From assembly GCF_041392005.1 (NCBI RefSeq), contig NZ_JAWKMX010000004.1, positions 61,325 through 125,324 of the forward strand: 64,000 nt of DNA, given 5' to 3'. The notes below the pieces were generated by a model. The model saw only the letters and a list, made by a program, of their open reading frames with translations, did no database searches and had not been told where the DNA came from. Origin of the DNA: Flavobacterium sp. (GTDB lineage: Bacteria > Bacteroidota > Bacteroidia > Flavobacteriales > Flavobacteriaceae). The translations under genes were made by a program, and so were the position numbers. Shown piece by piece: positions 14,867-62,837 of the stretch (positions are counted from its first letter, which is position 1; each line of letters opens with the position of its first letter).

Positions 14867-17248
14867 ATGAAAAGAAATATTAAAAAAGTAGCCGTAATTG
14901 GTTCAGGTATTATGGGAAGTGGCATCGCTTGTCATTTTGCCAATATTGGCGTAGAAGTGCTACTACTCGACATTGTTCCAAAAGAACTTACGGAAACTGA
15001 ACAAAAAAAAGGTTTATCATTAGAAAATAAATTAGTTCGCAACCGAATTGTAAATGAACATTTAACCAATGCTCTAAAATCGAAACCTTCTCCTATTTAT
15101 CATCAAAGTTTTGCCAACCGAATTACGACTGGTAATACTACTGATGACATGGCTAAAATTGCAGAAGCCGATTGGATTATTGAAGTAGTTGTGGAACGTT
15201 TAGATATTAAAAAATTGGTTTTTGAACAAGTTGAAAAATATCGAAAACCAGGAACATTAATTACAACCAATACTTCTGGAATTCCTATTCATTTTATGAG
15301 TGAAGGTAGAAGCGATGATTTTCAACAACATTTTTGCGGAACCCACTTTTTTAATCCGGCACGTTATTTAAAATTATTTGAAATTATTCCAGGACCAAAA
15401 ACTTCACAAGAAACGCTTGATTTTTTAAATGGTTATGGCGAAAAATTCCTTGGAAAAACATCGGTTGTTGCCAAAGATACTCCAGCATTTATAGGTAATC
15501 GAATCGGAATTTTTGGCATTATGAGTTTATTTCATCAAGTAAAAGAGATGAATTTAACCATTGAAGAAGTTGATAAATTAACTGGTCCAGTTATTGGTCG
15601 TCCAAAATCAGCAACGTTTCGTACGGTCGATGTTGTTGGTTTAGATACTTTGGTGCATGTAGCCAACGGAATTTTTGAAAATTGTCCTAATGATGAAGCG
15701 CATAATTTATTCAAATTGCCAGATTTCATTGATACGATGATGAAAAATAATTGGTTAGGAAGTAAAACTGGGCAAGGTTTTTATAAAAAAGTAGATAAAG
15801 ATATTCTTTCACTAGATTTAAATACATTAGAGTATCGACCAAATAAAAAAGCGTCTTTTGCGACTTTAGAGCTTACTAAAACTATCGATAAACCTATTAA
15901 TCGATTCAAAGTTTTAGTTGGTGGTAAAGATAAAGCAGGCGAATTTTACCGAAAAAACTTCTCGGCAATGTTTGCTTACTGCTCAAACAGAATTCCTGAA
16001 ATCACGGATGCCTTATACAAAATTGATGATGCTATGAAAGCTGGATTCGGTTGGGAAAATGGTCCATTCGAAATTTGGGATGCAATTGGTGTTGAAAAAG
16101 GTATCGAAATGATGAAAGCTGAAGGTTATGAACCAGCTTCATGGGTAAATGAAATGATAGCTTCAGGAACGACTTCTTTTTATTCTGTAAAAGATGGCGC
16201 CACTAATTACTACGCTATTTCTTCCAAATCAGTTGAAAAAATTCCTGGACAAGATGCTTTTATCATTTTAAATAATATAAGAGAAAATAAAAAAGTTTGG
16301 AATAACAACGAATCCATAATTACTGATTTAGGCGATGGTGTTTTAAATTTAGAATTTACTTCAAAAATGAATTCTATTGGTGCTGGTGTACTTCAAGGAA
16401 TTAATAAAGCAATCGATTTAGCCGAAAAAAATTATAATGGTTTAGTCATTGGCAATCAAGATGCTAACTTTTCAGTGGGTGCCAATTTAGGTATGATTTT
16501 TATGATGGCAGTAGAACAAGAATACGATTTAAATGAATTTGGCTATCAAAATGTTTCAAGATACGATGATGCGTTGTCGCTATCTTGGCACACTGGTAAT
16601 TGCTGCCCACACAATGGACATTGGGTGGTGATGAATTAACCATACGCCGACCGAGCTGTTGCAGCAGAAACGTATATCAGATTAGTCGAATTGGTGTATT
16701 AATTCCTGGTGGTGGCGGATCTAAAGAATGGCATTACGTGCAGCTGATACTTCGGTAAAATGATGTTGAACTAAACGTTTTACAAGAATATTTCTAATCG
16801 TTGGTATGGCGGTGTTGCAACATCAGTGAGCATGAAGGTTTTGATACTCGGAGTTTTACAAAAGTAAGACGCGATATAGTAGTAGTAAAGAAAGATCGTC
16901 AAACAGAATCTGCAAAACAAGTAGCTTACAATGGCCGAACAAGGTTATATGCAAACTGTAAAACGAGAAAAGATATAAAAAGTATTTGGGAAAACAAGCA
17001 TTAGGTATGTCTTTAGTAGGAACTGATAGTATGGTGTTTGGGAAATACATATCGGCTCATTGATAAAAAATTGCACAAACAGCTGGTGACGGCAGGTGGC
17101 GATTTGTCAGAAACCGAATTTGAAGAAGGTAAACAATATTTTATTAGATTTTGAAAGAGGGAAGCATTTTTAAGTTTAACTGCTGAACGAAAAACTTTAG
17201 AACGCATTCACATATGTTAGAACTAAAGGGAAGCCGCTTAGAAATTAG
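14867..17248 (+). pseudogene. fadN: 3-hydroxyacyl-CoA dehydrogenase/enoyl-CoA hydratase (FadN-like); apparent multiple frameshifts after about 16525, probably sequence error
   Basis: VAVIGSGIMGSGIA, HFFNP and FIGNRIG motifs; the hydratase half is recoverable in shifting frames and ends ..KPLRN* (TAG at 17246..17248). Confidence 0.85.
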
Positions 17249-17317
17249 TATCAAGTAATAAAAATTAAGTATTAAGACAATTATTTCTCTTTCTTCTTTC
17301 ATCTAAAATAAATTAAA

Positions 17318-18510: not shown

Positions 18511-18847
18511 ATGAAGGGTGATAATTTAATAGCTAATAAAATCTTTGAATTTTCAATTAACAATTATTGCACTTTATATTCTATTAAAAGGAAAGTAATT
18601 TGTCATTTCAGCAACTTTGAAAACTGGAACAAGTATTGGTGTTAATATAGAAGAAGCTATTGCAGCACAATCTAAAAAGATTTATTAGTAAATGTCAATC
18701 GCTTCCAAGGAGGCAAGAGAAACAAAATATTGGTTAAAATTATTAGATAAATCAGAATTAACAAAAGTTGGATGTATCACCTCATCTTGAGAAATTGAAC
18801 ATATAATAAATATTATTGCCAAAATAATAATAACATCAAAAAAATAA
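18511..18847 (+). pseudogene. four-helix-bundle protein (23S rRNA IVP / TIGR02436 family); apparent frameshifts
   Basis: Reconstructable across frames: MKGDNLIANKS.. GTSIG.NIEEAIAAQSKKD.. KMSIASKEARETKYWLKLLDKSEL.. EIEHIINIIAKIIITSKK*. Confidence 0.8.
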
Positions 18848-21124: not shown

Positions 21125-21207
21125 ATTCAATTTTTGAATTACGAATTACGAATTATAAATTACAAATTGCTTAACGTTTTTTGCCTAAAGCATAATACAT
21201 AAATAAA

Positions 21208-23406: not shown

Positions 23407-23438
23407 TCAGTAATCAGTTTCAGTACAGTATTCAGTAT

Positions 23439-25827: not shown

Positions 25828-28050
25828 ATGTCAGAACTAGAATTAGAAGCCGAAAACAAAGCCATTGCGCAAGAATATAAAGAACTACTTCGCATCAGCT
25901 ATCAAACACTTTCAAGTGACGATAAAAAACTCATTCGAAAAGCCTTTGACGTTGCTGTAGATGCACACAAAGATCAGCGTCGAAAATCGGGAGAAGCCTA
26001 TATTTTTCATCCTATTGCTGTAGCTAAAATTGTAGCATCAGAAATTGGTTTAGGTGCTACTTCTATAGCCGCGGCATTAATGCACGATGTAGTAGAAGAC
26101 ACTGAAATTACAGTAAAAGATATCGAAAATATGTTTAATCCTAAAATTGCAAAAATTGTAGAAGGATTAACCAAAATTGCTAAAGTAAAAACCGAACACG
26201 ATGTATCGTTACAAGCCGAAAATTTTCGTAAAATGCTGCTCACACTACACGAAGATGTTCGAGTTATCCTAATAAAAATTGCCGATCGTTTACACAATAT
26301 GCAAACAATGGACAGCATGGCCGATTATAAACAGGCAAAAATTGCATCGGAAACACTTTATATTTACGCACCACTCGCTCACCGTTTAGGACTCTATAAC
26401 ATAAAAACGCAACTTGAAGATTTAGGATTAAAATATACTGAACCAAAAATTTACAACGAAATTGTAAGTAAAATAAAAGAAACCAAGCAAGAACAAGATG
26501 CGTATATAAAATCTATTTCCGATGTTTTAACCCAATCGTTACAAGATGAAAATATAGATTTTATTATAAAAGGACGACCAAAATCTATTTATTCCATTAG
26601 ACGAAAAATGCGAACACAAGATGTAAGTTTTGAAGAAGTTTACGACAAGTTTGCACTTCGCATTATTTACAAATCGAAACCAAACGATGAAAAATTTTTA
26701 GCTTGGAAAATTTATTCCGTTGTAACCGATCATTACAGACCAAGTCCTAGCCGTTTGCGCGATTGGATTTCATCGCCAAAATCTACAGGGTACGAAGCAT
26801 TGCATATAACCGTTATGGGACCAAAAGGCCGCTGGGTAGAAATTCAAATTCGTAGTGAACGTATGGATGAAATTGCCGAAAAAGGCTACGCAGCGCACTA
26901 CAAGTATAAAAATGCCGATGCAGAAGAACACGGTCTCGAAATTTGGCTCAATCAATTAAAAGAAGCACTTGAAAACCAAACCACGAATGCAGTAGATTTT
27001 GTAGAAGATTTTAAATTAAATTTATACGCCAAAGAAATTTATATTTTTACACCAAAAGGTGATATAAAATCGTTACCAAAAGACGCTACTGCACTCGATT
27101 TTGCTTTTGCAATTCATACCGATGTTGGTTTAAAAACAAGAGGAACTAGGGTAAACGGAAAATTAGTACCACTTAATTATGTACTAAGTAGTGGCGACCA
27201 AGTAGAAGTAATTACTTCTCCAAATCAAAAGCCTACGTTACAATGGCTAGATTTTGTTACCACAGCAAGAGCCAAAACTAAAATAAAAAATGCGCTTAAC
27301 GAAAATGCTAAAAAAATTGCCGAAGACGGAAAAGAAATCCTTACACGAAAACTTCGACACTTAAAAATAACACTTAACGAATCTACAACTAACGAATTAG
27401 TTAATTATTTTAAACTGAAAACCAGTTTAGATTTATTTTATAGAGTTGGCATAGGCGCAATAGACAACCAAAATTTAAAAGATTTTGCGGCACAAAAAAG
27501 TAATACTTTAGTAAACTTTTTTAAGAAAACTATTAAACGTAGCGGAACAAATGTAAATTCCGAGCAACTAAACGCTAATGTATTAAGCAAAAACTACGAC
27601 TTATTAGTATTTGGTAAAGATGAAGAAAAATTAGATTATAAATTTGCAAATTGTTGTAACCCTATTGCTGGCGACGATGTTTTTGGGTTTGTAACCATAA
27701 ACGAAGGTATAAAAGTTCATAAAAAAGATTGCCCAAATGCTATTAGTATGCAATCCAATTATGCGTATCGTGTAATTCAAGCTAAATGGATAGATTCTAG
27801 CCAAGAAGAATTTAAAGCTATTATACAAATTCAAGGAATCGATACAATGGGATTAACTAACGAATTAACACGAGTTATATCAAACGAAATGCTCGTTAAC
27901 ATTCAAAGTTTATCTTTAAATGGAAATGCAGGTATTTTTAATGGAAAAATTACCGTTGTAGTACCTAACAACAATGTATTAAAAAAACTTATGGACAACA
28001 TTAAAAAAGTAGATGGTGTAGATAAAGTAATTCGTTTAAATAAAAATTAA
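25828..28050 (+). CDS. relA: bifunctional (p)ppGpp synthetase/hydrolase (RSH)
   Basis: HD domain (ALMHDVVED, KIADRLHNM), synthetase (GRPKSIYSI, YEALH, EIQIR), TGS and ACT domains. Confidence 0.95.
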   Translation: MSELELEAENKAIAQEYKELLRISYQTLSSDDKKLIRKAFDVAVDAHKDQRRKSGEAYIFHPIAVAKIVASEIGLGATSIAAALMHDVVEDTEITVKDIENMFNPKIAKIVEGLTKIAKVKTEHDVSLQAENFRKMLLTLHEDVRVILIKIADRLHNMQTMDSMADYKQAKIASETLYIYAPLAHRLGLYNIKTQLEDLGLKYTEPKIYNEIVSKIKETKQEQDAYIKSISDVLTQSLQDENIDFIIKGRPKSIYSIRRKMRTQDVSFEEVYDKFALRIIYKSKPNDEKFLAWKIYSVVTDHYRPSPSRLRDWISSPKSTGYEALHITVMGPKGRWVEIQIRSERMDEIAEKGYAAHYKYKNADAEEHGLEIWLNQLKEALENQTTNAVDFVEDFKLNLYAKEIYIFTPKGDIKSLPKDATALDFAFAIHTDVGLKTRGTRVNGKLVPLNYVLSSGDQVEVITSPNQKPTLQWLDFVTTARAKTKIKNALNENAKKIAEDGKEILTRKLRHLKITLNESTTNELVNYFKLKTSLDLFYRVGIGAIDNQNLKDFAAQKSNTLVNFFKKTIKRSGTNVNSEQLNANVLSKNYDLLVFGKDEEKLDYKFANCCNPIAGDDVFGFVTINEGIKVHKKDCPNAISMQSNYAYRVIQAKWIDSSQEEFKAIIQIQGIDTMGLTNELTRVISNEMLVNIQSLSLNGNAGIFNGKITVVVPNNNVLKKLMDNIKKVDGVDKVIRLNKN

Positions 28051-28126
28051 GTTAACCGTTATCTGTTTTCTGTTAGCGTTTTTTCTAATTTCTAAATTCT
28101 AATTTCTAAATTCTAATTTTTAAAAG

Positions 28127-28134
28127 TATCTTTG
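28127..28134 (+). promoter_or_regulatory. -7 promoter box for fur-purA
   Basis: TATCTTTG matches TAnnTTTG. Confidence 0.6.
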
Positions 28135-28156
28135 CAACGATTTATAAAAATTTCCG

Positions 28157-28594
28157 ATGGAAAACAATAACAATCAAGAAATTGTAAAAAACGTATTTAC
28201 CAATTATTTAGAAGAAAAAGCACATCGTAAAACTCCAGAACGCTACGCTATTCTTCAAGAAATATACAACTCTAACGAACATTTCGATATAGAATCATTA
28301 TATATCAAAATGAAAAATAAAAATTACCGCGTAAGTCGTGCCACTCTTTATAATACTATCGAACTATTACTTGATTGTGGCTTAGTGCGTCGCCATCAAT
28401 TTGGACAAAACCAAGCGCATTATGAAAAATCGTATTTCGACAAGCAACACGATCATATTATTTTAACCGACACAGGTGAAGTTATCGAATTTTGCGATCC
28501 TCGAATTCAACAAATAAAACAAACCATGGAAGAAATTTTTGGTGTTGAAATTCAAAACCACTCACTATATTTTTACGGAACAAAAAAGAAATAA
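28157..28594 (+). CDS. fur: Fur family transcriptional regulator
   Basis: [34 protein letters not shown]. Confidence 0.9.
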
Positions 28595-28628
28595 TTTTAA
28601 TTCATAAACACACAACAAACAACACAAA

Positions 28629-29900
28629 ATGACTGTAGATTTATTACTCGGATTACAATGGGGCGACGAAGGCAAAGGAAAAATTGTTGACGTACTTACT
28701 TCAAAATACGATATTATAGCTCGTTTTCAAGGCGGACCAAACGCAGGACACACATTAGAATTTGACGGAATAAAACACGTTTTACGCACTATCCCTTCAG
28801 GAATTTTTCATAAAAACGCTATAAATATCATTGGAAACGGTGTCGTTATTGACCCTGTGGTTTTTCAAAAAGAATTAGAAGGGTTAGCAAAATTTGACAT
28901 GGATGTAACTTCTAAATTATTCATTTCAAGAAAAGCACACTTAATTCTTCCAACGCATAGATTGCTTGATGCTGCTTCCGAAGCTTCAAAAGGAAAAGCA
29001 AAAATTGGTTCTACTTTAAAAGGAATTGGCCCTACTTATATGGACAAAACAGGTAGAAACGGTCTGCGAATTGGCGATATTGAACTAGCCGATTTTAAAC
29101 AGCGCTACCGCAATTTAGCCGATAAACACCAAGCAATGATTGCTTTTTATGATGTCGATTTACAGTACGATTTAAAAGAAATGGAAGAAGAATTTTTTGA
29201 AGCTATTACTGCATTAAAACAACTCACTTTCATAGACAGCGAAGACTATTTAAACCAAGCCTTAAAAAAAGGAAAATCTATTTTAGCAGAAGGCGCACAA
29301 GGTTCTCTTTTAGATGTCGATTTTGGCACTTATCCTTTTGTAACATCATCAAACACTACTGCTGCAGGCGCTTGTACAGGTCTAGGAATTGCACCAAACA
29401 AAGTAAAAGACGTTTTTGGTATTTTTAAAGCCTATACTACTCGTGTAGGTTCCGGACCTTTCCCAACAGAATTATTTGATGAAGTAGGACAAACAATGGC
29501 AAAAGTAGGTAACGAATTTGGCTCTGTAACAGGTCGTGCTCGTCGTTGTGGCTGGCTCGATTTAGTAGCGCTAAAATATGCCGTTCAAGTAAATGGCGTA
29601 ACCGCATTATATATGATGAAAGGCGATGTGCTTTCGGGCTTTAATACTTTAAAAGTTTGCACTGCATACAAATATAAAGGCGAAACTATAAAACATCTTC
29701 CATATACTATTGAACCCGAAAATCTTGAACCAATTTATACCGAAATGAAAGGATGGAATGCCGATTTAACCGAAATGACATCGTATAATGAATTACCACA
29801 AGAACTTAAAAATTATATTTCGTTTATAGAAGAAGAACTTGAAGTTCCTATTACAATAATTTCTGTCGGACCCGATAGAACGCAAACCATTTCAAAATAA
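28629..29900 (+). CDS. purA: adenylosuccinate synthetase
   Basis: GLQWGDEGKGK, QGGPNAGHT, EGAQG, GSVTGRARRCGW. Confidence 0.98.
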   Translation: MTVDLLLGLQWGDEGKGKIVDVLTSKYDIIARFQGGPNAGHTLEFDGIKHVLRTIPSGIFHKNAINIIGNGVVIDPVVFQKELEGLAKFDMDVTSKLFISRKAHLILPTHRLLDAASEASKGKAKIGSTLKGIGPTYMDKTGRNGLRIGDIELADFKQRYRNLADKHQAMIAFYDVDLQYDLKEMEEEFFEAITALKQLTFIDSEDYLNQALKKGKSILAEGAQGSLLDVDFGTYPFVTSSNTTAAGACTGLGIAPNKVKDVFGIFKAYTTRVGSGPFPTELFDEVGQTMAKVGNEFGSVTGRARRCGWLDLVALKYAVQVNGVTALYMMKGDVLSGFNTLKVCTAYKYKGETIKHLPYTIEPENLEPIYTEMKGWNADLTEMTSYNELPQELKNYISFIEEELEVPITIISVGPDRTQTISK

Positions 29901-29907
29901 TTTAAAA

Positions 29908-29938
29908 TAAAAAAGTGCTTTTATAAAGCACTTTTATT
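29908..29938 (+). terminator. intrinsic terminator
   Basis: aaaaagtgctt-ttat-aaagcactttt hairpin. Confidence 0.7.
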
Positions 29939-30006
29939 ATAAAAATTTCTTAATACTAACTGCCTTCATTACTTTTTACTTATTTTTGACTTAAAATAAA
30001 ACTGAA

Positions 30007-31659
30007 TTGAAAAAAGTAATTTTATACCTTATAATTCTATTGTTTGGTGTGCAATTTGCACACTCGCAAGAAGAAGAAAACACGAATACTATAAAAATTG
30101 TAAAAAACGATTTTGTCGATAGAAATGAAGATGAAATACCTGGCGCAACAGTATTTACAGGAAATGTAGAAGTAGTACATAAAGGCGTTATAATTAATTG
30201 TAATAAAGCATACTATTTTGATAAAGAAAATTACGTAAAAGCCTTTGGAAATGTGCGTATTAACCAAGGCGATAGCATTACATTAAATAGTCAATATGCC
30301 GAATACGATGGAAAAAAAGAATTAGCCATTGCAACAGGAAATGTGCTACTGCGTTCGCCAGAATCTACATTAACAACCGATACCATTTATTATGACAAAG
30401 CTAGGCAAATGGCATTTTATAATAATTCTGGAACTATTGTAAATAAAGAAAATACGCTAAAAAGTAGATCGGGTAAATATTATGTTAATGCCAAAATGTA
30501 CCAATTTACTACACGCGTAGTTGTTACAAATCCTAAAGCGAAAATAGAAACCAATAGGTTAGATTATTACGAAAACTCGGGGCATGCCTACGTTTTTGGA
30601 CCATCAAACATTTACAATCAAGGAAATGTAATTTATACCGAAAACGGATTTTACGATACAAAACGAAATACAGGTATTCTTAAAAAGAACTCCAAAATTT
30701 ACTACGATAATAAAATTATAGAAGGCGACGAACTTTTTTACGATAGAAACAAAAATTTTTCAAAAGGAATAAACAATGTAAAAATTACCGACACCTTAAA
30801 CAATATGGTAGCAAAAGGACATTATGCCGAATTATGGCGCAATGCTCAAACCCGAAAAGATTCTATTATTCTTACCAAAAAAGCACTTGTAATAACTAAA
30901 GTTGAAGGCGATTCTCTTTATATGCACGGAAAAAAAATGTTAGTTACCGGACCTCCAGAAGACAGGGTTATTCGTGCTTTTAACAACGTTCGTTTTTACA
31001 AAACCGATATGAGTGGAAAATGCGATTCTATACACTCTAACAATAAAACGGCGCTAACAAAACTTATTGGAAATCCTGTAGTTTGGAACAACGACAACCA
31101 AATGACTGGCGATATTATGCACCTAATAGGAAATAACAAAACCGAAAAACTCGATTCGTTAAAAGTACTTAATAACGCGTTTTTAATTCAAAAAGACACA
31201 TTAAGCAAAAATGGCTACAACCAAATGAAAGGTCAAAATTTATACGGTAGATTTGAAGACAATAAACTTCGTGAAGTTGACATTATAAAAAACACCGAAT
31301 CTATCTATTATATGTATTCCGAAGACAATGAACTTATAGGAATAGATAAGAAAAAGTGTAGTAAAATAAATTTACAAATTACCGATAATCAAATTGAAAC
31401 CGTTACAGCTTACAAAGATGTAGAAAGTAACTTATATCCAGAAGACGAATTTCCAGAAAACGCCAGAAAATTAAGAGGATTTACTTGGCGTGGCGATGAA
31501 CGTATTAAATCGAAAAACGACATTTTTCCCGAAGAAGAATTAGAACTCGACAAACAAATTCAAATAGAAGCCAAACAAAAAGCCGAAGAAAACGAAACGC
31601 CAATGGAAGTTTTGCCTGAAACTTTGGAATATGATGAAAAGAATAAAAGTGAAAAGTAA
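30007..31659 (+). CDS. OstA-like (LptA/LptD N-domain) protein
   Basis: TTG start, signal peptide, beta-jellyroll repeats (FTGNVEVVH, AFGNVRI, ATGNVLL), SGKCDSIH, LRGFTWRGDER. Confidence 0.85.
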   Translation: MKKVILYLIILLFGVQFAHSQEEENTNTIKIVKNDFVDRNEDEIPGATVFTGNVEVVHKGVIINCNKAYYFDKENYVKAFGNVRINQGDSITLNSQYAEYDGKKELAIATGNVLLRSPESTLTTDTIYYDKARQMAFYNNSGTIVNKENTLKSRSGKYYVNAKMYQFTTRVVVTNPKAKIETNRLDYYENSGHAYVFGPSNIYNQGNVIYTENGFYDTKRNTGILKKNSKIYYDNKIIEGDELFYDRNKNFSKGINNVKITDTLNNMVAKGHYAELWRNAQTRKDSIILTKKALVITKVEGDSLYMHGKKMLVTGPPEDRVIRAFNNVRFYKTDMSGKCDSIHSNNKTALTKLIGNPVVWNNDNQMTGDIMHLIGNNKTEKLDSLKVLNNAFLIQKDTLSKNGYNQMKGQNLYGRFEDNKLREVDIIKNTESIYYMYSEDNELIGIDKKKCSKINLQITDNQIETVTAYKDVESNLYPEDEFPENARKLRGFTWRGDERIKSKNDIFPEEELELDKQIQIEAKQKAEENETPMEVLPETLEYDEKNKSEK

Positions 31660-31703
31660 TTAGTGAAGAGTGATTAGTGATTAGTAACTATTCATTAGTA
31701 TTA
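31648..31703 (+). repeat. left heptamer array (AGTRATT/AGTRAAG)
   Basis: agtgaaa agtaatt agtgaag agtgatt agtgatt agtaact attcatt agtatta, eight in-phase units. Confidence 0.9.
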
Positions 31704-31710
31704 TACAATT

Positions 31711-32469
31711 ATGAAAAAAATCTTGAAATTTTTAATATTCATTTTAATAATAGTAATAATTGTAATCATCTATTTTTATATAAAACCAGCCATACAAGTT
31801 GAACAACTTGAAGTCGAAAATAACATTCCTATTAAAATTGCTCCTTATTCCTCTTTTGAAGGTAATGATAGCATTGTCATTTTTATTCCTTATAAATTTA
31901 GAGTATCTAATAATAGACTCAAACAAATTAAAATTAATCATGTAACGTTCAAAAATAAACTTTCTACAGGTATTGAACGTGATTTATTATTTGATAAAAA
32001 AGGTTATCTTTTAGGTAAAGGTTATAATTCACAAGCAATTGACAGCTTATTATTTAATAAAGAAATAATCAATTATTTACAACTCAAACATAACAAAGAA
32101 GTCTTCCCTTTTTCTGATAAAGAATATTATTTTTATAAGCCTTTTTTATTTAGCAAATTTTCTATTAAGGGATTAGACAACAATGACGATTATATAAAAT
32201 TAGTTCATAATTTTTTTAAACATCAAACACTTAAACTTCACAATAAAAGCAATCTTAATATTAATGAAAAAATTATAGATAGTTTATATAAAAATAGTTT
32301 GAACACCAAAATAATTCTAAATTATGGTTCGCTTAAAACTAATGATTACATAAATGATTATGATGTTGAATTTTATTTGGGAACTAAAAAACAAAATTTA
32401 ATTGATTTCTCTAAAATGACAACAGATGAAATAATAAAATATTTATCTAATAACCGTTTCGACAAATAA
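31711..32469 (+). CDS. orphan, very AT-rich single-pass membrane protein
   Basis: 252 aa ORF with an N-terminal TM anchor; no recognisable motif; visibly lower GC than its neighbours. Confidence 0.7.
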   Translation: MKKILKFLIFILIIVIIVIIYFYIKPAIQVEQLEVENNIPIKIAPYSSFEGNDSIVIFIPYKFRVSNNRLKQIKINHVTFKNKLSTGIERDLLFDKKGYLLGKGYNSQAIDSLLFNKEIINYLQLKHNKEVFPFSDKEYYFYKPFLFSKFSIKGLDNNDDYIKLVHNFFKHQTLKLHNKSNLNINEKIIDSLYKNSLNTKIILNYGSLKTNDYINDYDVEFYLGTKKQNLIDFSKMTTDEIIKYLSNNRFDK

Positions 32470-32495
32470 CAGATTATAATAATAGTAAATATTAA

Positions 32496-32530
32496 CTTTA
32501 CTAATTACTCTTCACTAATCACTCTTTACT
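32496..32530 (-). repeat. right heptamer array, inverted relative to 31648..31703
   Basis: ctttact aattact cttcact aatcact ctttact = reverse complement agtaaag agtgatt agtgaag agtaatt agtaaag. Confidence 0.9.
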
Positions 32531-32535
32531 AAAAA

Positions 32536-33714
32536 ATGCTTAACGACTTTTTTAAATACCAAGCCCAAACATCGCCACACCCGCTAGCAATAGCAATATC
32601 AAAAGCCGAAGGAAGTTACATTTACGATACTGATAATTATGCTTATTTAGATTTCGTTGCAGGCGTTTCCGCAAATACTTTAGGGCATCAACCAAAGCGA
32701 GTAAACGACGCCATAAAAGCACAACTCGATAAATATTCGCACGTAATGGTTTATGGCGAATACGCCCAACAACCCGCAACCGAGTTTTGCAAACTATTAG
32801 CTTCTCTCCTACCGGAACCTTTAAATAAAACGTATCTAGTAAATTCTGGAACCGAAGCCATTGAAGGCGCTTTAAAATTGGCTCGTAGAGTTACTGGGCG
32901 TAGCCAATTAATTTCGTGCCATAATGCTTATCATGGTAATACGATGGGCAGCATGAGCGTTATGGGGTTTGAAGAACGTAAACAAGTTTTTCGTCCGCTT
33001 ATACCCGATGTCGATTTTATTACTTTCAACAACGAGGCTGATTTAGAAAAGATTACTACAAAAACAGCGGGTGTCATTTTAGAAACCATACAAGGTGGCG
33101 CAGGATTTATCCAACCAGAAAACGATTTTTTGAAAAAAATCCGTCAACGATGTACCGAAGTTGGTGCAGTTATGATTTTAGACGAAATCCAACCTGGTTT
33201 TGGGCGAACAGGTAAATTATTTGGTTTTCAAAACTACGATATCGTTCCCGATGTTGTTGTTATGGGAAAAGGTATGGCAAGCGGAATGCCCGTTGGGGCT
33301 TTTACAGCTTCAGCCGAAATGATGGATTTGTTAAGTCATGATCCAAAATTAGGCCACATTACCACTTTTGGTGGTCATCCAGTTATTGCAGCAGCATCCT
33401 TAGCAACTTTGCAAGAAGTTACCGAAACTAACTTAATGCAAAAAGCATTAGAAAAAGAACAAGTATTTAGAGAACTTTTAGTTCATCCACTTATAAAAGA
33501 AATTAGAGGAAAAGGCTTAATGTTAGCCGCCATGACACCAAGTGCCGATATTACCAACCGCGTTATTTTAGAATGCCATAAACGTGGGTTAATTTTATTT
33601 TGGTTATTATTTGAAGAAAAAGCCATACGCATAACGCCACCACTAACTATTTCAAAAGAAGAAATAAAAAAAGGTTGTGGCATTATTATTGACGTATTAA
33701 ATAGTATAGTTTAA
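32536..33714 (+). CDS. class III PLP aminotransferase (acetylornithine aminotransferase-like)
   Basis: NSGTEAIEGALK, AYHGNT, ETIQGGAG, DEIQPGFGRTG, MGKGM, TTFGGHP. Confidence 0.9.
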   Translation: MLNDFFKYQAQTSPHPLAIAISKAEGSYIYDTDNYAYLDFVAGVSANTLGHQPKRVNDAIKAQLDKYSHVMVYGEYAQQPATEFCKLLASLLPEPLNKTYLVNSGTEAIEGALKLARRVTGRSQLISCHNAYHGNTMGSMSVMGFEERKQVFRPLIPDVDFITFNNEADLEKITTKTAGVILETIQGGAGFIQPENDFLKKIRQRCTEVGAVMILDEIQPGFGRTGKLFGFQNYDIVPDVVVMGKGMASGMPVGAFTASAEMMDLLSHDPKLGHITTFGGHPVIAAASLATLQEVTETNLMQKALEKEQVFRELLVHPLIKEIRGKGLMLAAMTPSADITNRVILECHKRGLILFWLLFEEKAIRITPPLTISKEEIKKGCGIIIDVLNSIV

Positions 33715-33950
33715 TGATTCTAAAGTATATAAAATTAAATAAAACCTTTTATCCAAAATCAAAAATTGTTAATTAAATTGTTTAAAACAATTGGTTTCTT
33801 ACGAATGAAACCGTGTTAAAATTCTTACCTTTATTAAGTGGTAAACTGTAAAATTGAAAGCTATGAAATGCCCATTACTATAATTACGAAACCACCGAAG
33901 ATGTTCAAAATGGGCATTCCATCTTCCATAATTTAAAATATTTTGTAAAG

Positions 33951-35345
33951 ATGAAAATGAGTTTTGATGAAGACGACAACAGCCTTTCGTTATCAAAATT
34001 TGAATCGATGCTAAAAACCAACAAAGTTTTCTTTTTCGATTCAGATGAATTTGAAGGAATTATACTTCATTATATGGATACGGGAAGAATAAATTTAGCC
34101 AAAAGAGCCTTAAAAATTGGCTTAGAACAACATCCAAAATCTACTGGAATAAAATTGGTACAAGTAGAAATGCTTATTTATGAAGATAAGCTAGAACTAG
34201 CCGAAAAATTACTAACCGAACTTTTTGCAATAGAACCCACTAACGAAGAAATTTACATTCAGCAAGCTAATATATTTTCAAAGCGCGACCAACACGAAAA
34301 AGCCATACACTCGTTACAAACTGCCCTAAAATATACTGATGATTTAGCCGATATTTATTCTATGATAGGAATGGAATATTTATTTATGGACGATTTAGAA
34401 AAAGCTAAAGACTATTTTATTCTATGTTTAGAAATTGATGAACTCGATTATTCTGCTCTTTATAACGTGGTTTATTGTTTTGATTTTCTAGACCAAAATG
34501 AAAAAGCGATTGAATACTTAGAAAAATTTATCGATAAAAATCCTTATAGCGAAGTGGCTTGGCACCAACTTGGGCGCCAATTTTACACACTAAAAAAATA
34601 CGAAAAAGCAGTTTGGGCTTTCGATTATGCTACGCTTATAGACGATACTTTTTTAGGCGCTTATATGGAAAAAGCAAAAGCATACGAAAAATTAAAACGC
34701 TATGAAGAAGCCATAACAGCTTATACCATAACTACAGAATTAGACGATGTTACTTCGTTTGCACTATTGCGAATGGGAAGATGCTATTTAAAATTAGGAA
34801 ACAAAGAAAAAGCATTAGAATTTTACCATAAAACAGTTCACGAAGATCCGCTTTTAGATAAAGGTTGGATTGCTATTACCGATTTTTACATTACCGAAAA
34901 AAATTATCGAAAAGCTTTATATTATGTAAATAAAGCATTAGGAATTGACGATACTAATACGTATTATTGGAAACGTTATGCCGCTATTAACCAAGCCTTG
35001 CATTTTTATGAAGAAGCCGAATTAGGCTACCGAAAAGCATTCGAAAATGGCGATATTAACTTAGACACTTTCATACTTTGGGCAGATACGCTTCAATATA
35101 CAGGCGAATTTGAAAATGCTATTGATATACTACTACAAGCATCCGATGTTTTTCCTGAAGAATACGAATTAGAATATCGATTAGCAGGTTTGTATTATTT
35201 GATTAACGAAATAGAAAAAGGAAGCTTTCACTTAGCCAATGGTTTGCGTTTAAACTATCACAATCATACCTTTATACAGTATTTTTTTCCTTCAGTTTGG
35301 CAATTAGTCGAAGTGCAAGATAAAATTAAAAATTTCAAAAATTAA
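33951..35345 (+). CDS. tetratricopeptide repeat protein
   Basis: Successive TPR helices (A..Y..A...DP/D...AW). Confidence 0.88.
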   Translation: MKMSFDEDDNSLSLSKFESMLKTNKVFFFDSDEFEGIILHYMDTGRINLAKRALKIGLEQHPKSTGIKLVQVEMLIYEDKLELAEKLLTELFAIEPTNEEIYIQQANIFSKRDQHEKAIHSLQTALKYTDDLADIYSMIGMEYLFMDDLEKAKDYFILCLEIDELDYSALYNVVYCFDFLDQNEKAIEYLEKFIDKNPYSEVAWHQLGRQFYTLKKYEKAVWAFDYATLIDDTFLGAYMEKAKAYEKLKRYEEAITAYTITTELDDVTSFALLRMGRCYLKLGNKEKALEFYHKTVHEDPLLDKGWIAITDFYITEKNYRKALYYVNKALGIDDTNTYYWKRYAAINQALHFYEEAELGYRKAFENGDINLDTFILWADTLQYTGEFENAIDILLQASDVFPEEYELEYRLAGLYYLINEIEKGSFHLANGLRLNYHNHTFIQYFFPSVWQLVEVQDKIKNFKN

Positions 35346-35404
35346 CCTTTACATAATATAAATACAATCGTTCTAAAGTATATTTAGCTTGATTTTTTTA
35401 ACCT

Positions 35405-36373
35405 ATGAGAAAACTTTTTCCCGACTATTTATTAATTACCCTAAAAGGAATGGCAATGGGTGCTGCCGATGTTGTACCTGGTGTTTCTGGCGGAACAATT
35501 GCATTTATTTCTGGCATATACGAAGAACTGCTCGACAGTATTAACCGAGTTAATTTTGATACTCTAAAAAATCTACGAAAAAATGGATTAAAAGCAACTT
35601 GGGCTGCACTAAACGGAAACTTTCTTTTAGCCTTACTCACTGGAATTGGAATTAGCGTATTAACATTTTCAAAAGTAATTACACATTTATTAGCCACGCA
35701 GCCTATTTTAGTCTGGTCGTTCTTCTTTGGTTTAGTCATTGCTAGTATTGTATTTATTTGGAAAGAAATTACAAAATGGTCGCCTAAAGCAATTGTTGCA
35801 TTAAGCATAGGAACTTTCATTTCATATTACATCACAATTGCACAACCCACACAAACACCAGACAGTTTACCTTTCTTATTTTTATCAGGCTTTTTAGCCA
35901 TAATTGCTATGATTTTACCTGGTGTTTCTGGTGCTTTCATTTTACTCTTATTAGGCTCGTACCAATCTGTTATTGGAACTATAAATCAGTTTCGAGAAGG
36001 TTTAACACAATTAAATGTCGAAATTTTAGCACAAGCCTTATTAAAATTAGGCGTATTTGCAATTGGCGCTATTTTAGGTTTAAAATTATTTTCAAAAGTT
36101 TTAAAATGGATGTTTTCGCATCATAAAAACACAACTTTGGCTTTATTAATTGGCTTTATGATAGGTTCTTTAAATAAAATATGGCCTTGGAAACAAGTTT
36201 TAGAAACCAGAATCGATAGCCATGGAAAAACCGTTCCTTTTATTGAGAAAAGCATTTTACCACAATATTTTAATGGCGAACCAAAGATTGCAATGGCTAT
36301 ACTTTTAGCAATAGTTGGCTTTCTTATTATTTTTATTCTTGAAAAAGTAGCCGTAAGAATCGGAAAAAAATAA
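35405..36373 (+). CDS. DUF368 family membrane protein
   Basis: KGMAMGAADVVPGVSGGTIA, AMILPGVSG, GSLNKIWPW. Confidence 0.9.
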   Translation: MRKLFPDYLLITLKGMAMGAADVVPGVSGGTIAFISGIYEELLDSINRVNFDTLKNLRKNGLKATWAALNGNFLLALLTGIGISVLTFSKVITHLLATQPILVWSFFFGLVIASIVFIWKEITKWSPKAIVALSIGTFISYYITIAQPTQTPDSLPFLFLSGFLAIIAMILPGVSGAFILLLLGSYQSVIGTINQFREGLTQLNVEILAQALLKLGVFAIGAILGLKLFSKVLKWMFSHHKNTTLALLIGFMIGSLNKIWPWKQVLETRIDSHGKTVPFIEKSILPQYFNGEPKIAMAILLAIVGFLIIFILEKVAVRIGKK

Positions 36374-62802: not shown

Positions 62803-62837
62803 TACTTTTTACTTTTTACTTTTTACTTTTTACTTTT
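62803..62837 (-). repeat. perfect heptamer tandem repeat (TACTTTT)x5
   Basis: Five exact copies overlapping the stop codon of the 2OG oxygenase gene. Confidence 0.9.

What the first reader, a model, noticed from the sequence alone, without database searches (positions are those of the whole stretch)
31648..32530. Orphan gene bracketed by inverted heptamer arrays: candidate intervening-sequence-like cassette
Seen: an AT-rich orphan membrane-protein gene lies between the ostA-like and aminotransferase genes. Eight in-phase 7-mers (agtaatt, agtgaag, agtgatt...) begin around the upstream stop codon. Five of the same units (agtaaag agtgatt agtgaag agtaatt agtaaag) lie on the opposite strand just before the downstream ATG. 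The arrays could pair in RNA or ssDNA and loop out the whole gene; being periodic, they can pair in several registers. Established: rRNA intervening sequences are bounded by such stems and cut out by RNase III. Inference: this is a single-gene cassette inserted or exchanged through repeat-built inverted ends, and possibly processed out of the operon mRNA. No transposase or integrase is encoded.
Basis: partly seen in the sequence, partly recalled or inferred. Interest (0 to 1): 0.8.

Follow-up and report, generated by a model that had tools for sequence, protein, structure and literature searches.

The report
Mobile orphan gene between heptamer-repeat arms
A small, very AT-rich gene of unknown function sits between two mirror-image runs of a 7-base repeat in a Flavobacterium operon. 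The repeats belong to a genome-wide class that hugs gene ends, and the gene has been swapped between diverged lineages at this same spot, but nothing shows that the repeats cut it out or carry it.

Summary
Six exact and two degenerate AGTnnnn units start 12 nt before the ostA-like stop codon. Five units of the same family lie on the other strand, 5 nt before the aminotransferase ATG. The arms are 31 nt long and 87% complementary, and they close the predicted RNA fold.

The arrays are not special to this gene. The genome holds about 130 AGT-phased heptamer arrays, 108 of them intergenic. Their AGT end abuts a gene end, and adjacent arrays face inward 23:2. A congener shows the same rule more strongly. 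Many species carry such arms at this same junction with nothing between them.

The gene is a discrete mobile unit. It is absent from 399 of 400 other species of the genus, has 21.5% GC, and is under purifying selection (dN/dS 0.25). Between two lineages its dS is 0.23, against 1.5 for the adjacent ostA. The young tract ends about 3 nt before its ATG and at the downstream array.

Two lineages carry the gene without the upstream arm, and distant homologues have no arrays. Array pairs that bracket one gene show no preferred orientation (4 inward, 5 outward).

Verdict: cassette-like insertion or exchange is partly supported. A role for the arms and RNase III excision were not tested. IVP and GxxExxY genes in this genome share the architecture.

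The parts
29981..29988 (+). TATTTTTG, a match to the Bacteroidota -7 promoter box, 19 nt upstream of the ostA-like start. It is the only such box on the + strand outside the coding sequences between here and the end of the aminotransferase gene (one more lies inside ostA at 31248).
   Evidence: pattern scan. That it acts as a promoter is inferred.
30007..31659 (+). ostA-like gene (OstA_2 / LptD_N domains), a core gene. Its last 12 nt and its stop codon lie inside the upstream array.
31648..31703 (+). Upstream arm: 8 in-phase heptamers, 6 with an exact AGT, of the AGT[GA]A-type family. It abuts and overlaps the ostA stop.
31708..32535 (.). Tract that is 89-97% identical between lineages whose flanking core genes are only about 76-82% identical. 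This is the recently exchanged unit: the orphan gene, its 26-nt trailer and the downstream array.
31711..32469 (+). Orphan gene: 252 aa, N-terminal TM anchor, 21.5% GC, no known family. It is conserved in 5 metagenome homologues, with dN/dS 0.25 against its orthologue.
32470..32495 (+). Trailer after the orphan stop, conserved together with the gene in the L036 lineage.
32496..32530 (-). Downstream arm: 5 heptamers (AGTAAAG AGTGATT AGTGAAG AGTAATT AGTAAAG on the - strand). On the sense strand it forms a G-free leader that ends 5 nt before the aminotransferase ATG. Its length varies between strains.
32536..33714 (+). Class-III aminotransferase, a core gene present in 40 of 41 genus genomes.

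Best explanation
The two arrays are the arms of an inward-facing pair of AGT-N4 heptamer arrays. This is a polar, fast-evolving repeat class. In this genome and in congeners it sits hard against gene ends, with the AGT strand reading away from the gene. The ostA-to-aminotransferase junction carries such arms in many species with nothing between them.

Between the arms lies a 0.8-kb mobile accessory segment. It holds a functional gene for a 252-aa membrane-anchored protein, a 26-nt trailer and probably the downstream arm. This segment entered the junction, and has been exchanged between diverged Flavobacterium lineages, long after their core genomes split.

The most likely route is recombination at the array-bearing junction: one crossover in or beside the downstream array and an illegitimate joint just before the ATG (inferred). 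The gene has no promoter box of its own and is probably read through from the ostA promoter (inferred). The long-range stem is most likely a by-product of same-family arms, not an excision device (inferred).
For: Arrays are a generic class:
- The genome has 130 chains of at least 3 AGT at period 7, against 7-34 at periods 5, 6, 8 and 9. 108 of them are intergenic in a genome that is 87% coding.
- The AGT end lies a median 13.5 nt from the gene behind it and 75.5 nt from the gene ahead. Distances of 10 nt or less: 49 against 4.
- Adjacent arrays with no gene between them are (+,-) 23 times and (-,+) 2 times.
- Congener G011 shows the same rule: 42:3, 25:1 and 11:1.
- The arrays are patchy but widespread in the genus and the order.
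- Genes next to arrays are not low in GC.
- At this locus the arms abut ostA (overlapping it) and the aminotransferase (5 nt away), not the orphan.

The junction in relatives: 14-207 bp in 24 of the 27 relatives with ostA upstream, with forward arrays after the ostA stop in about half of them and reverse arrays before the ATG in about a third (read by eye).

The gene is a mobile unit:
- It is absent from 399 of 400 other species of the genus.
- Its GC is in the lowest 0.7% of genes.
- Orphan dS is 0.23 and its nucleotide identity 91.8%; adjacent ostA has dS 1.54 and 76.8% identity on the same contig.
- One 675-nt metagenome contig is 97% identical in the orphan's 3' part and about 76% in the aminotransferase.
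- On the left, alignment stops at 31708.

The arms are not obligatory: the L036-type lineage and one in run X8 have the gene without the upstream arm, and distant homologues lack arrays.

No internal -7 box or terminator-like hairpin lies between ostA and the aminotransferase.
Against: - The orphan ranks 3rd of 2121 genes for complementarity between its flanks.
- The arm duplex is stronger than 96% of random array pairs.
- The stem closes both the MFE and the centroid fold, z = -3.6. This is more than a casual by-product would be expected to give.
- The downstream arm travels inside the young tract.
- A second lineage, in run X6, has the upstream array next to the orphan.
- IVP and GxxExxY genes in the same genome are bracketed in the same way.
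- The recombination route is inferred, not observed.
Confidence: 0.5

Rival explanations
1. The arrays are the working ends of a cassette system. Same-family heptamer arms act as portable homology, so that a promoterless gene flanked by them can be swapped in or out by a double crossover at any junction that already holds an inward-facing pair.
For: - The borders of the recently exchanged tract coincide with the inner edges of the arrays.
- The downstream arm is inside the tract.
- Empty inward-facing pairs are common (23 in this genome) and occur at this junction in other species.
- A different ORF occupies the same junction in G041.
- The sufB-sufC junction likewise holds variable cargo across species, with IVP arms retained around a remnant.
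- IVP and GxxExxY genes are bracketed by inverted repeats.
Against: - Two lineages have the gene with no upstream arm.
- In every lineage where the upstream flank can be read, the gene sits at the same junction. About 15 other junctions in this genome carry same-family arrays, so free array-mediated exchange should have scattered it.
- Single-gene brackets show no preferred orientation, 4 against 5.
- The arms are same-family but not mirrored copies.
- Adjacent arms are only weakly complementary in general.
Confidence: 0.2
2. The locus is an IVS-like RNA element. In the ostA-orphan-aminotransferase transcript the arms pair and RNase III cuts the stem, releasing or separating the orphan mRNA from the operon mRNA.
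For: - A 31-nt, 87% complementary stem closes the MFE and centroid folds, with a duplex energy of -37.7 kcal/mol.
- The genome encodes RNase III.
- Genes of the 23S-IVS protein family in this genome have the same bracketed layout.
Against: - No RNA data exist for this organism.
- Two lineages keep the gene, under purifying selection, without the 5' arm.
- The cargo is not an IVS-type protein.
- The 5' arm overlaps the ostA stop codon and the 3' arm sits 5 nt from the next ATG, so ribosomes would often melt the stem.
Confidence: 0.1
3. The gene is an old resident of this junction and the two arrays arose independently at the neighbouring gene ends. The bracket is a coincidence and nothing here is mobile.
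For: - Arrays cluster and abut core gene ends everywhere.
- The AGT[GA]A-type family makes up 29% of arrays, so two same-family neighbours are not rare.
- Orientation among single-gene brackets looks random.
Against: - The gene is absent from 399 of 400 congeners.
- Its GC is extreme.
- Its synonymous divergence is six times lower than that of the adjacent core gene on the same contig, with sharp borders.
Confidence: 0.1

Closest known systems
Intergenic heptanucleotide repeats: cyanobacterial STRR, the long simple sequence repeats of Mrazek et al. 2007, and the TAACTGA repeats of Beggiatoaceae, Cyanobacteria and Bacteroidetes (MacGregor 2015, PMC4679880)
   Same: 7-nt units in tandem, almost all intergenic, many per genome, with a patchy phylogenetic spread. 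Unit counts vary in steps of about 7 nt between strains. ACT-type arrays lie just upstream of start codons. The function is unknown.
   Different: Here the conserved core is AGT plus four variable bases, not one fixed heptamer. The arrays are polar with respect to both gene ends and usually face inward in pairs. A pair brackets a recently exchanged gene. None of these points appears in the two heptamer-repeat papers I read; my literature searches did not target them.
ORF-bearing intervening sequences of 23S rRNA (Coxiella, Leptospira; PMC4990558, title and abstract only; excision by RNase III and the bounding stem are from general knowledge)
   Same: A small gene enclosed by a stem made from inverted flanks. 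The element is selfish or accessory, inserted in a housekeeping transcription unit. Genes of the IVS protein family (PF05635) in this same genome are bracketed in the same way.
   Different: This one lies between protein-coding genes, not in an rRNA helix. The cargo is not an S23p/IVP protein. No evidence of RNA excision exists. The arms occur without cargo and the cargo occurs without one arm.
REP / REPIN elements with RAYT transposases (general knowledge)
   Same: Dispersed intergenic repeats that occur as inverted doublets able to form hairpins.
   Different: The two RAYT-like genes of this genome (identified from their sequence by eye, not by a family search) are flanked by GC-rich palindromes unrelated to the heptamer arrays. 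The array arms are tandem and variable, not copies of one sequence.
Integron gene cassettes (promoterless ORF plus attC), from general knowledge
   Same: A single promoterless gene with a repeat-bearing 3' end, inserted in a transcribed array and exchanged between lineages.
   Different: No integrase lies on the contig. There is no attC-like imperfect palindrome, and the gene is a single insertion in a core operon, not part of a cassette array.

Membership tests
Intergenic heptamer tandem repeats (STRR / LSSR / TAACTGA class) | Tandem units of exactly 7 nt | tested here: met
   Period 7 is specific: 130 chains, against 7-34 at other periods.
Intergenic heptamer tandem repeats (STRR / LSSR / TAACTGA class) | Many copies per genome, overwhelmingly intergenic, patchy across relatives | tested here: met
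   108 of 130 arrays are intergenic. Counts in 40 relatives range from 0 to 213.
Intergenic heptamer tandem repeats (STRR / LSSR / TAACTGA class) | Unit number varies between close strains | tested here: met
   A variant 13 nt shorter occurs in run X4. Arms 18-20 nt shorter occur in L036 and in the X6-X8 lineages.
ORF-bearing 23S rRNA intervening sequence | Inserted in a 23S rRNA helix | tested here: not met
   The locus lies between the ostA-like and aminotransferase genes. There is no Rfam hit.
ORF-bearing 23S rRNA intervening sequence | Cargo is an S23p / IVP four-helix-bundle protein (PF05635) | tested here: not met
   The orphan has no Pfam hit. The PF05635 loci of the genome lie elsewhere.
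ORF-bearing 23S rRNA intervening sequence | Bounded by a stem formed from inverted flanks | tested here: met
   Arms of 31 nt at 87% complementarity. The stem is in the MFE and centroid folds. This is in silico only.
ORF-bearing 23S rRNA intervening sequence | Excised from the transcript by RNase III | not testable with these tools
   No RNA runs hold this sequence. An rnc gene is present.
Integron gene cassette | Integron integrase and attI nearby; attC at the 3' end of the cassette | tested here: not met
   No PF00589 hit on contig C4. The 3' end is a heptamer array, not an attC-type palindrome.
REP / REPIN-RAYT system | The repeats match those that flank the genome's RAYT genes | tested here: not met
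   The RAYT-like genes are flanked by GC-rich palindromes, not AGT heptamers.
Transposon / MITE | A transposase, or near-identical terminal inverted repeats with target-site duplication and multiple copies | tested here: not met
   No transposase or recombinase was found in the ORFs of 28000-36000 (read by eye) or, for tyrosine recombinases, on the contig. The arms are same-family but not mirrored copies. The gene is single-copy in the genome. Target-site duplication cannot be judged in A-rich flanks.

The most novel reading that the evidence does not exclude
AGT-N4 heptamer arrays are the recombination arms of an integrase-less gene-cassette system. Inward-facing array pairs at gene junctions would be docking sites. 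Small promoterless genes (this orphan, IVP four-helix-bundle genes, GxxExxY nuclease genes) would be swapped in and out between the arms across species. This would give the long-unexplained bacterial heptamer repeats a role in gene flow.
Probability: 0.2. Interest if true: 0.85.

Novelty: new variant of a known kind. Interest (0 to 1): 0.55.

Why it matters
Intergenic heptamer repeats have been known in cyanobacteria, Beggiatoaceae and Bacteroidota for decades, and no function or mechanism has been agreed. This locus adds three concrete points.
- A strict polarity rule: the AGT end abuts the gene end and pairs face inward. It holds in two species.
- The same junction carries arms with no cargo, with this cargo, or with a different cargo in different species.
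- The cargo is far younger than its flanks, and the borders of the young tract fall at the arrays.

Together these make the idea that such arrays mark or mediate gene insertion points directly testable. The tests are comparative dS scans and a transformation assay in a laboratory Flavobacterium. If the idea fails, the locus is still a clean example of a horizontally exchanged gene lodged inside a core operon.

Tried and rejected
- Terminator reading rejected. No T-tract follows the arms, no terminator-like site lies between ostA and the aminotransferase, and arrays also occur between divergent genes.
- Selected hairpin as the general purpose of inward-facing pairs: weak. Adjacent arms are only slightly more complementary than random array pairs (-0.60 against -0.50 kcal/mol per nt, p = 0.015), and some pairs are not complementary at all.
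- RAYT/REP link rejected.
- Arrays as markers of low-GC accessory DNA rejected. Genes next to arrays have slightly higher GC than average.
- A HutP/TRAP-like periodic RNA-binding site was considered. The polarity is symmetric about genes, not tied to the transcript strand, which argues against a purely RNA-level reading.
- Structure of the orphan: the AlphaFold model had a mean pLDDT of 55, too poor for a fold search, so none was run.
- NCBIfam gave only sub-threshold hits to the TM segment.
- Searches of JGI metagenome contigs and of GTDB genome contigs with the orphan family found nothing.
- A 390-kb sample of G023 gave only 18 intergenic arrays. The trend was the same but the sample was too small to test.
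- One genome search was wasted on too small a sample.
- Whether the upstream arm was gained in G000 or lost in L036 could not be settled. ostA tail lengths point to loss in L036, but this is ambiguous.
Full report
**1. The observation**

On the + strand, from 31648, run eight in-phase heptamers: AGTGAAA AGTAATT AGTGAAG AGTGATT AGTGATT AGTAACT ATTCATT AGTATTA. Six have an exact AGT. The array starts 12 nt inside the ostA-like ORF (30007-31659; OstA_2 and LptD_N domains). The stop codon TAA of that ORF is part of unit 2.

On the - strand, at 32496-32530, lie AGTAAAG AGTGATT AGTGAAG AGTAATT AGTAAAG. This array ends 5 nt before the ATG of a class-III aminotransferase (32536-33714).

A degenerate three-unit pattern gives 10 matches in the window against 0.01 expected. 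The best arm pair, 31648-31678 with 32500-32530, is 31 nt long, 87% complementary and 821 nt apart.

Between the arms lies ORF 31711-32469. It encodes 252 aa with an N-terminal TM helix and has no Pfam or NCBIfam family. Its GC is 21.5%, in the lowest 0.7% of the genome's genes.

Contigs from four wastewater metagenomes span both array-gene joins without differences, so the layout is not an assembly artefact. The genome is a 2.37-Mb, 32% GC, 51-contig assembly.

**2. What the arrays are**

They are not peculiar to this gene.

- The genome has 130 chains of at least three AGT (or ACT) at a spacing of exactly 7. The counts are 10 at period 5, 34 at period 6, 7 at period 8 and 16 at period 9. Other trinucleotides give far fewer chains.
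- 108 of the 130 are intergenic, although 87% of the genome is coding.
- Units vary (AGTCAAA, AGTTGAA, AGTTATG, AGTTTAC, AGTGATT and others) while the AGT stays in phase.
- The AGT[GA]A-type family seen here makes up 38 of the 130 arrays.

The arrays are polar.

- Read along the AGT strand, the 5' end sits a median 13.5 nt from the gene behind it. The 3' end sits a median 75.5 nt from the gene ahead. The behind distance is the shorter in 86 cases and the longer in 22. Distances of 10 nt or less number 49 behind and 4 ahead.
- The gene end behind the array is a stop codon in 42 cases and a start codon in 15. On any mRNA, therefore, AGU-type arrays follow stops and G-free ACU-type arrays precede starts.
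- As a result, neighbouring arrays with no gene between them face inward: (+,-) 23 times, (-,+) 2 times.
- Many apparently solo arrays have a degenerate partner ahead of them.
- In 150 kb of a congener, G011, whose unit families differ, the rule is stronger: 42:3, 25:1 and 11:1. A smaller sample of G023 shows the same trend.
- The arrays are patchy across the genus and the order, from 0 to 213 five-unit matches per genome.

Further properties:

- Genes next to arrays are ordinary core genes, not low-GC genes.
- Adjacent arms are only slightly more complementary than random array pairs, so the hairpin is not the defining property.
- The two RAYT-like genes of the genome (identified from their sequence by eye) are flanked by unrelated GC-rich palindromes.

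The class matches the long-known but unexplained intergenic heptamer repeats: STRR, LSSR, and the TAACTGA repeats of MacGregor 2015 (PMC4679880). In Nostoc, such repeats have been reported to affect expression of the downstream gene, with no partner protein identified (bioRxiv 10.1101/2022.06.06.494920).

**3. The junction in relatives**

- The aminotransferase is present in 40 of 41 genus genomes.
- In 27 of the 29 relatives whose loci were read, ostA lies upstream of the aminotransferase. In 24 of these the spacer is 14-207 bp. One locus was mis-parsed and one has a 31-bp spacer by a doubtful start call.
- By eye, about half of the 27 have forward (C)AGTnnn arrays that start at the ostA stop. 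About a third have reverse-type arrays just before the aminotransferase ATG. Unit sequences differ between species.
- The inward-facing pair is therefore a recurrent feature of this junction without any cargo.
- One species (G041, locus L020) has a different 159-aa ORF in a 600-bp spacer, with only the downstream arm. That ORF has no Pfam family.
- At this locus the arms abut ostA and the aminotransferase. The orphan lies on the "ahead" side of both arms. This is the geometry expected if a gene arrived inside a pre-existing pair.

**4. The gene is a mobile unit**

Distribution:

- The orphan is absent from 40 relatives and from 399 of 400 other species of the genus. The one exception has two copies at 34% identity elsewhere in its genome.
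- Searches of GTDB genome contigs and JGI metagenome contigs found nothing.
- Five metagenome homologues exist, at 54-87% identity. They align with 70% mean column identity.

The 87% homologue (L036) has the same synteny: ostA, orphan, aminotransferase. On that one contig:

| Region | Nucleotide identity to G000 | dS | dN/dS |
|---|---|---|---|
| Orphan | 91.8% | 0.23 (by thirds: 0.38, 0.26, 0.07) | 0.25 |
| Adjacent 314 codons of ostA | 76.8% | 1.54 | not computed |

Contigs from other wastewater runs fix the borders.

- One 760-nt contig is 82% identical in ostA. It then has 145 unalignable letters, and is 89.5% identical from 31708 onward.
- One 675-nt contig is 97% identical over 32250-32469. 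It has a shorter array, and is about 76% identical over the first 185 nt of the aminotransferase.
- The 26-nt trailer and the three units nearest the aminotransferase are nearly identical between G000 and L036.

The young tract is therefore about 31708-32535: the orphan, its trailer and the downstream arm. The gene has been exchanged between lineages long after their core genomes diverged, and it sits at the same junction in each lineage where the flank can be read.

**5. Do the arms carry or excise the gene?**

Against:

- L036 has no upstream array. Its spacer is 10 nt and its ostA tail is different.
- Another lineage, in run X8, also has a different, array-free sequence before the ATG.
- Homologues at 54-61% identity, and the one at 34%, lie in other contexts without arrays.
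- Array pairs with exactly one gene between them are (+,-) 4, (-,+) 5 and same-strand 5.
- The arms are same-family but not mirrored copies.
- No recombinase lies on the contig.
- No contig joint skips the gene.

For:

- In a scan of all 2121 genes for complementarity between their flanks, the orphan ranks 3rd. Scores of 14 or more occur 19 times, against 5 with random pairing of flanks.
- The arm duplex of -37.7 kcal/mol beats 96% of random array pairs.
- The stem closes both the MFE and the centroid structure of the 916-nt RNA, z = -3.6.
- A 216-nt contig in run X6 shows a further lineage with the upstream array next to the orphan.
- RNase III is encoded in the genome, but no RNA data exist.

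**6. The same architecture with other cargo**

- Nearly every PF05635 (23S-rRNA-IVS protein, four-helix bundle) locus of this genome is bracketed by inverted short-period repeats. The unit differs from locus to locus. At least one GxxExxY (PDDEXK_3) gene is bracketed in the same way.
- Three IVP genes and one GxxExxY gene are among the 28 best-scoring genes of the flank scan.
- Two IVP genes carry arms of the same AGT[GA]A-type family as this locus.
- The sufB-sufC junction is empty in one congener. It holds an IVP gene with arms here, an IVP remnant with the arms retained in another species, and other ORFs in two more.
- The idea of a small gene between repeat-built inverted arms is therefore real in this genome. 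It is clearest for IVS-type genes. The present cargo is a different protein.

**7. Transcription**

The only Bacteroidota -7 box (TAnnTTTG) on the + strand outside coding sequence is at 29981, just upstream of ostA. No such box lies in the orphan's flanks or before the aminotransferase. No terminator-like hairpin lies between the three genes. Co-transcription is inferred, not shown.

**8. Verdict**

- The arrays are ordinary members of a polar class of heptamer arrays that abut gene ends.
- The gene is a functional, recently exchanged accessory unit whose borders coincide with the arrays.
- The claim that the arms are the cassette's own ends is not supported.
- RNase III excision is untested.
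- The most novel reading that remains open is that such array pairs are docking or recombination arms for small promoterless genes. I put it at about 0.2.

Earlier notes of this scan describe heptamer-armed IVP and GxxExxY cassettes in other genomes. I reached the same association here independently, before reading them. I treat those notes as leads, not as evidence.

Noticed in passing
window 18539-18769 (G000:C4:79863-80093), plus nine other loci of the genome (e.g. C20:46915-47271, C8:834-1190, C2:8329-8676, C1:32217-32576, C1:218067-218386): Genes and pseudogenes of the 23S-rRNA-IVS protein family (PF05635) sit between core genes. Nearly all are bracketed by inverted short-period repeats whose unit differs per locus (AGTGAAT, AATTACG, TTTGGAAA, AGTTATG, agaaaaaagac/gtcttttttct). 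The copy in the window has 3 in-frame stops.
   Followed up: partly
G000:C2:8329-8676 and loci L061-L065: The sufB-sufC junction varies across congeners. It is empty (30 nt) in G004, holds an IVP gene with arms in G000, holds an IVP remnant with similar arms in G003, holds other ORFs directly upstream of sufC in G001 and G005, and has 629 nt of non-coding DNA in G002.
   Followed up: partly
G000:C6:15410-15784 and C2:42129-42533: Two GxxExxY / PDDEXK_3 genes. The first is flanked by a 13-nt perfect inverted repeat (aagaatctcaaag / ctttgagattctt).
   Followed up: no
G000:C2:43336-43760: A second small orphan (108 aa, 25% GC) lies between a + array that abuts the upstream gene's stop and a - array.
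   Followed up: no
G000:C1:76838-77386 and C8:72745-73344: Two RAYT-like (IS200-type Y1 transposase) genes, identified from their sequence by eye, flanked by GC-rich REP-like palindromes. This repeat system is separate from the heptamer arrays.
   Followed up: partly
L020 (G041), ostA-aminotransferase spacer: A different 159-aa membrane-protein ORF with no Pfam family occupies the same junction in another species. Only the downstream reverse-type array is present.
   Followed up: partly
L066/L067 (G101), L032, L037: Distant homologues of the orphan lie in runs of small AT-rich hypothetical genes. In G101 there are two paralogous modules in which the homologue directly follows a gene ending ...KKINW. 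In L037 the gene is flanked by direct repeats of about 75 nt that contain a TAtaTTTG promoter-like box. The layout recalls polymorphic toxin/immunity or cassette islands; this was not tested.
   Followed up: no
window 17247-17276, 21136-21168, 23407-23438, 28082-28124, 62803-62837: Further period-7 arrays in the window, with units AGTATTA, GAATTAC, TCAGTAT, TTTCTAA and TACTTTT.
   Followed up: partly
window 32518 (run X4) and 32482-32508 (runs X6-X8, X10): Co-occurring strains and lineages carry the downstream array shortened by 13 to 20 nt, so the array is prone to indels at population level.
   Followed up: partly
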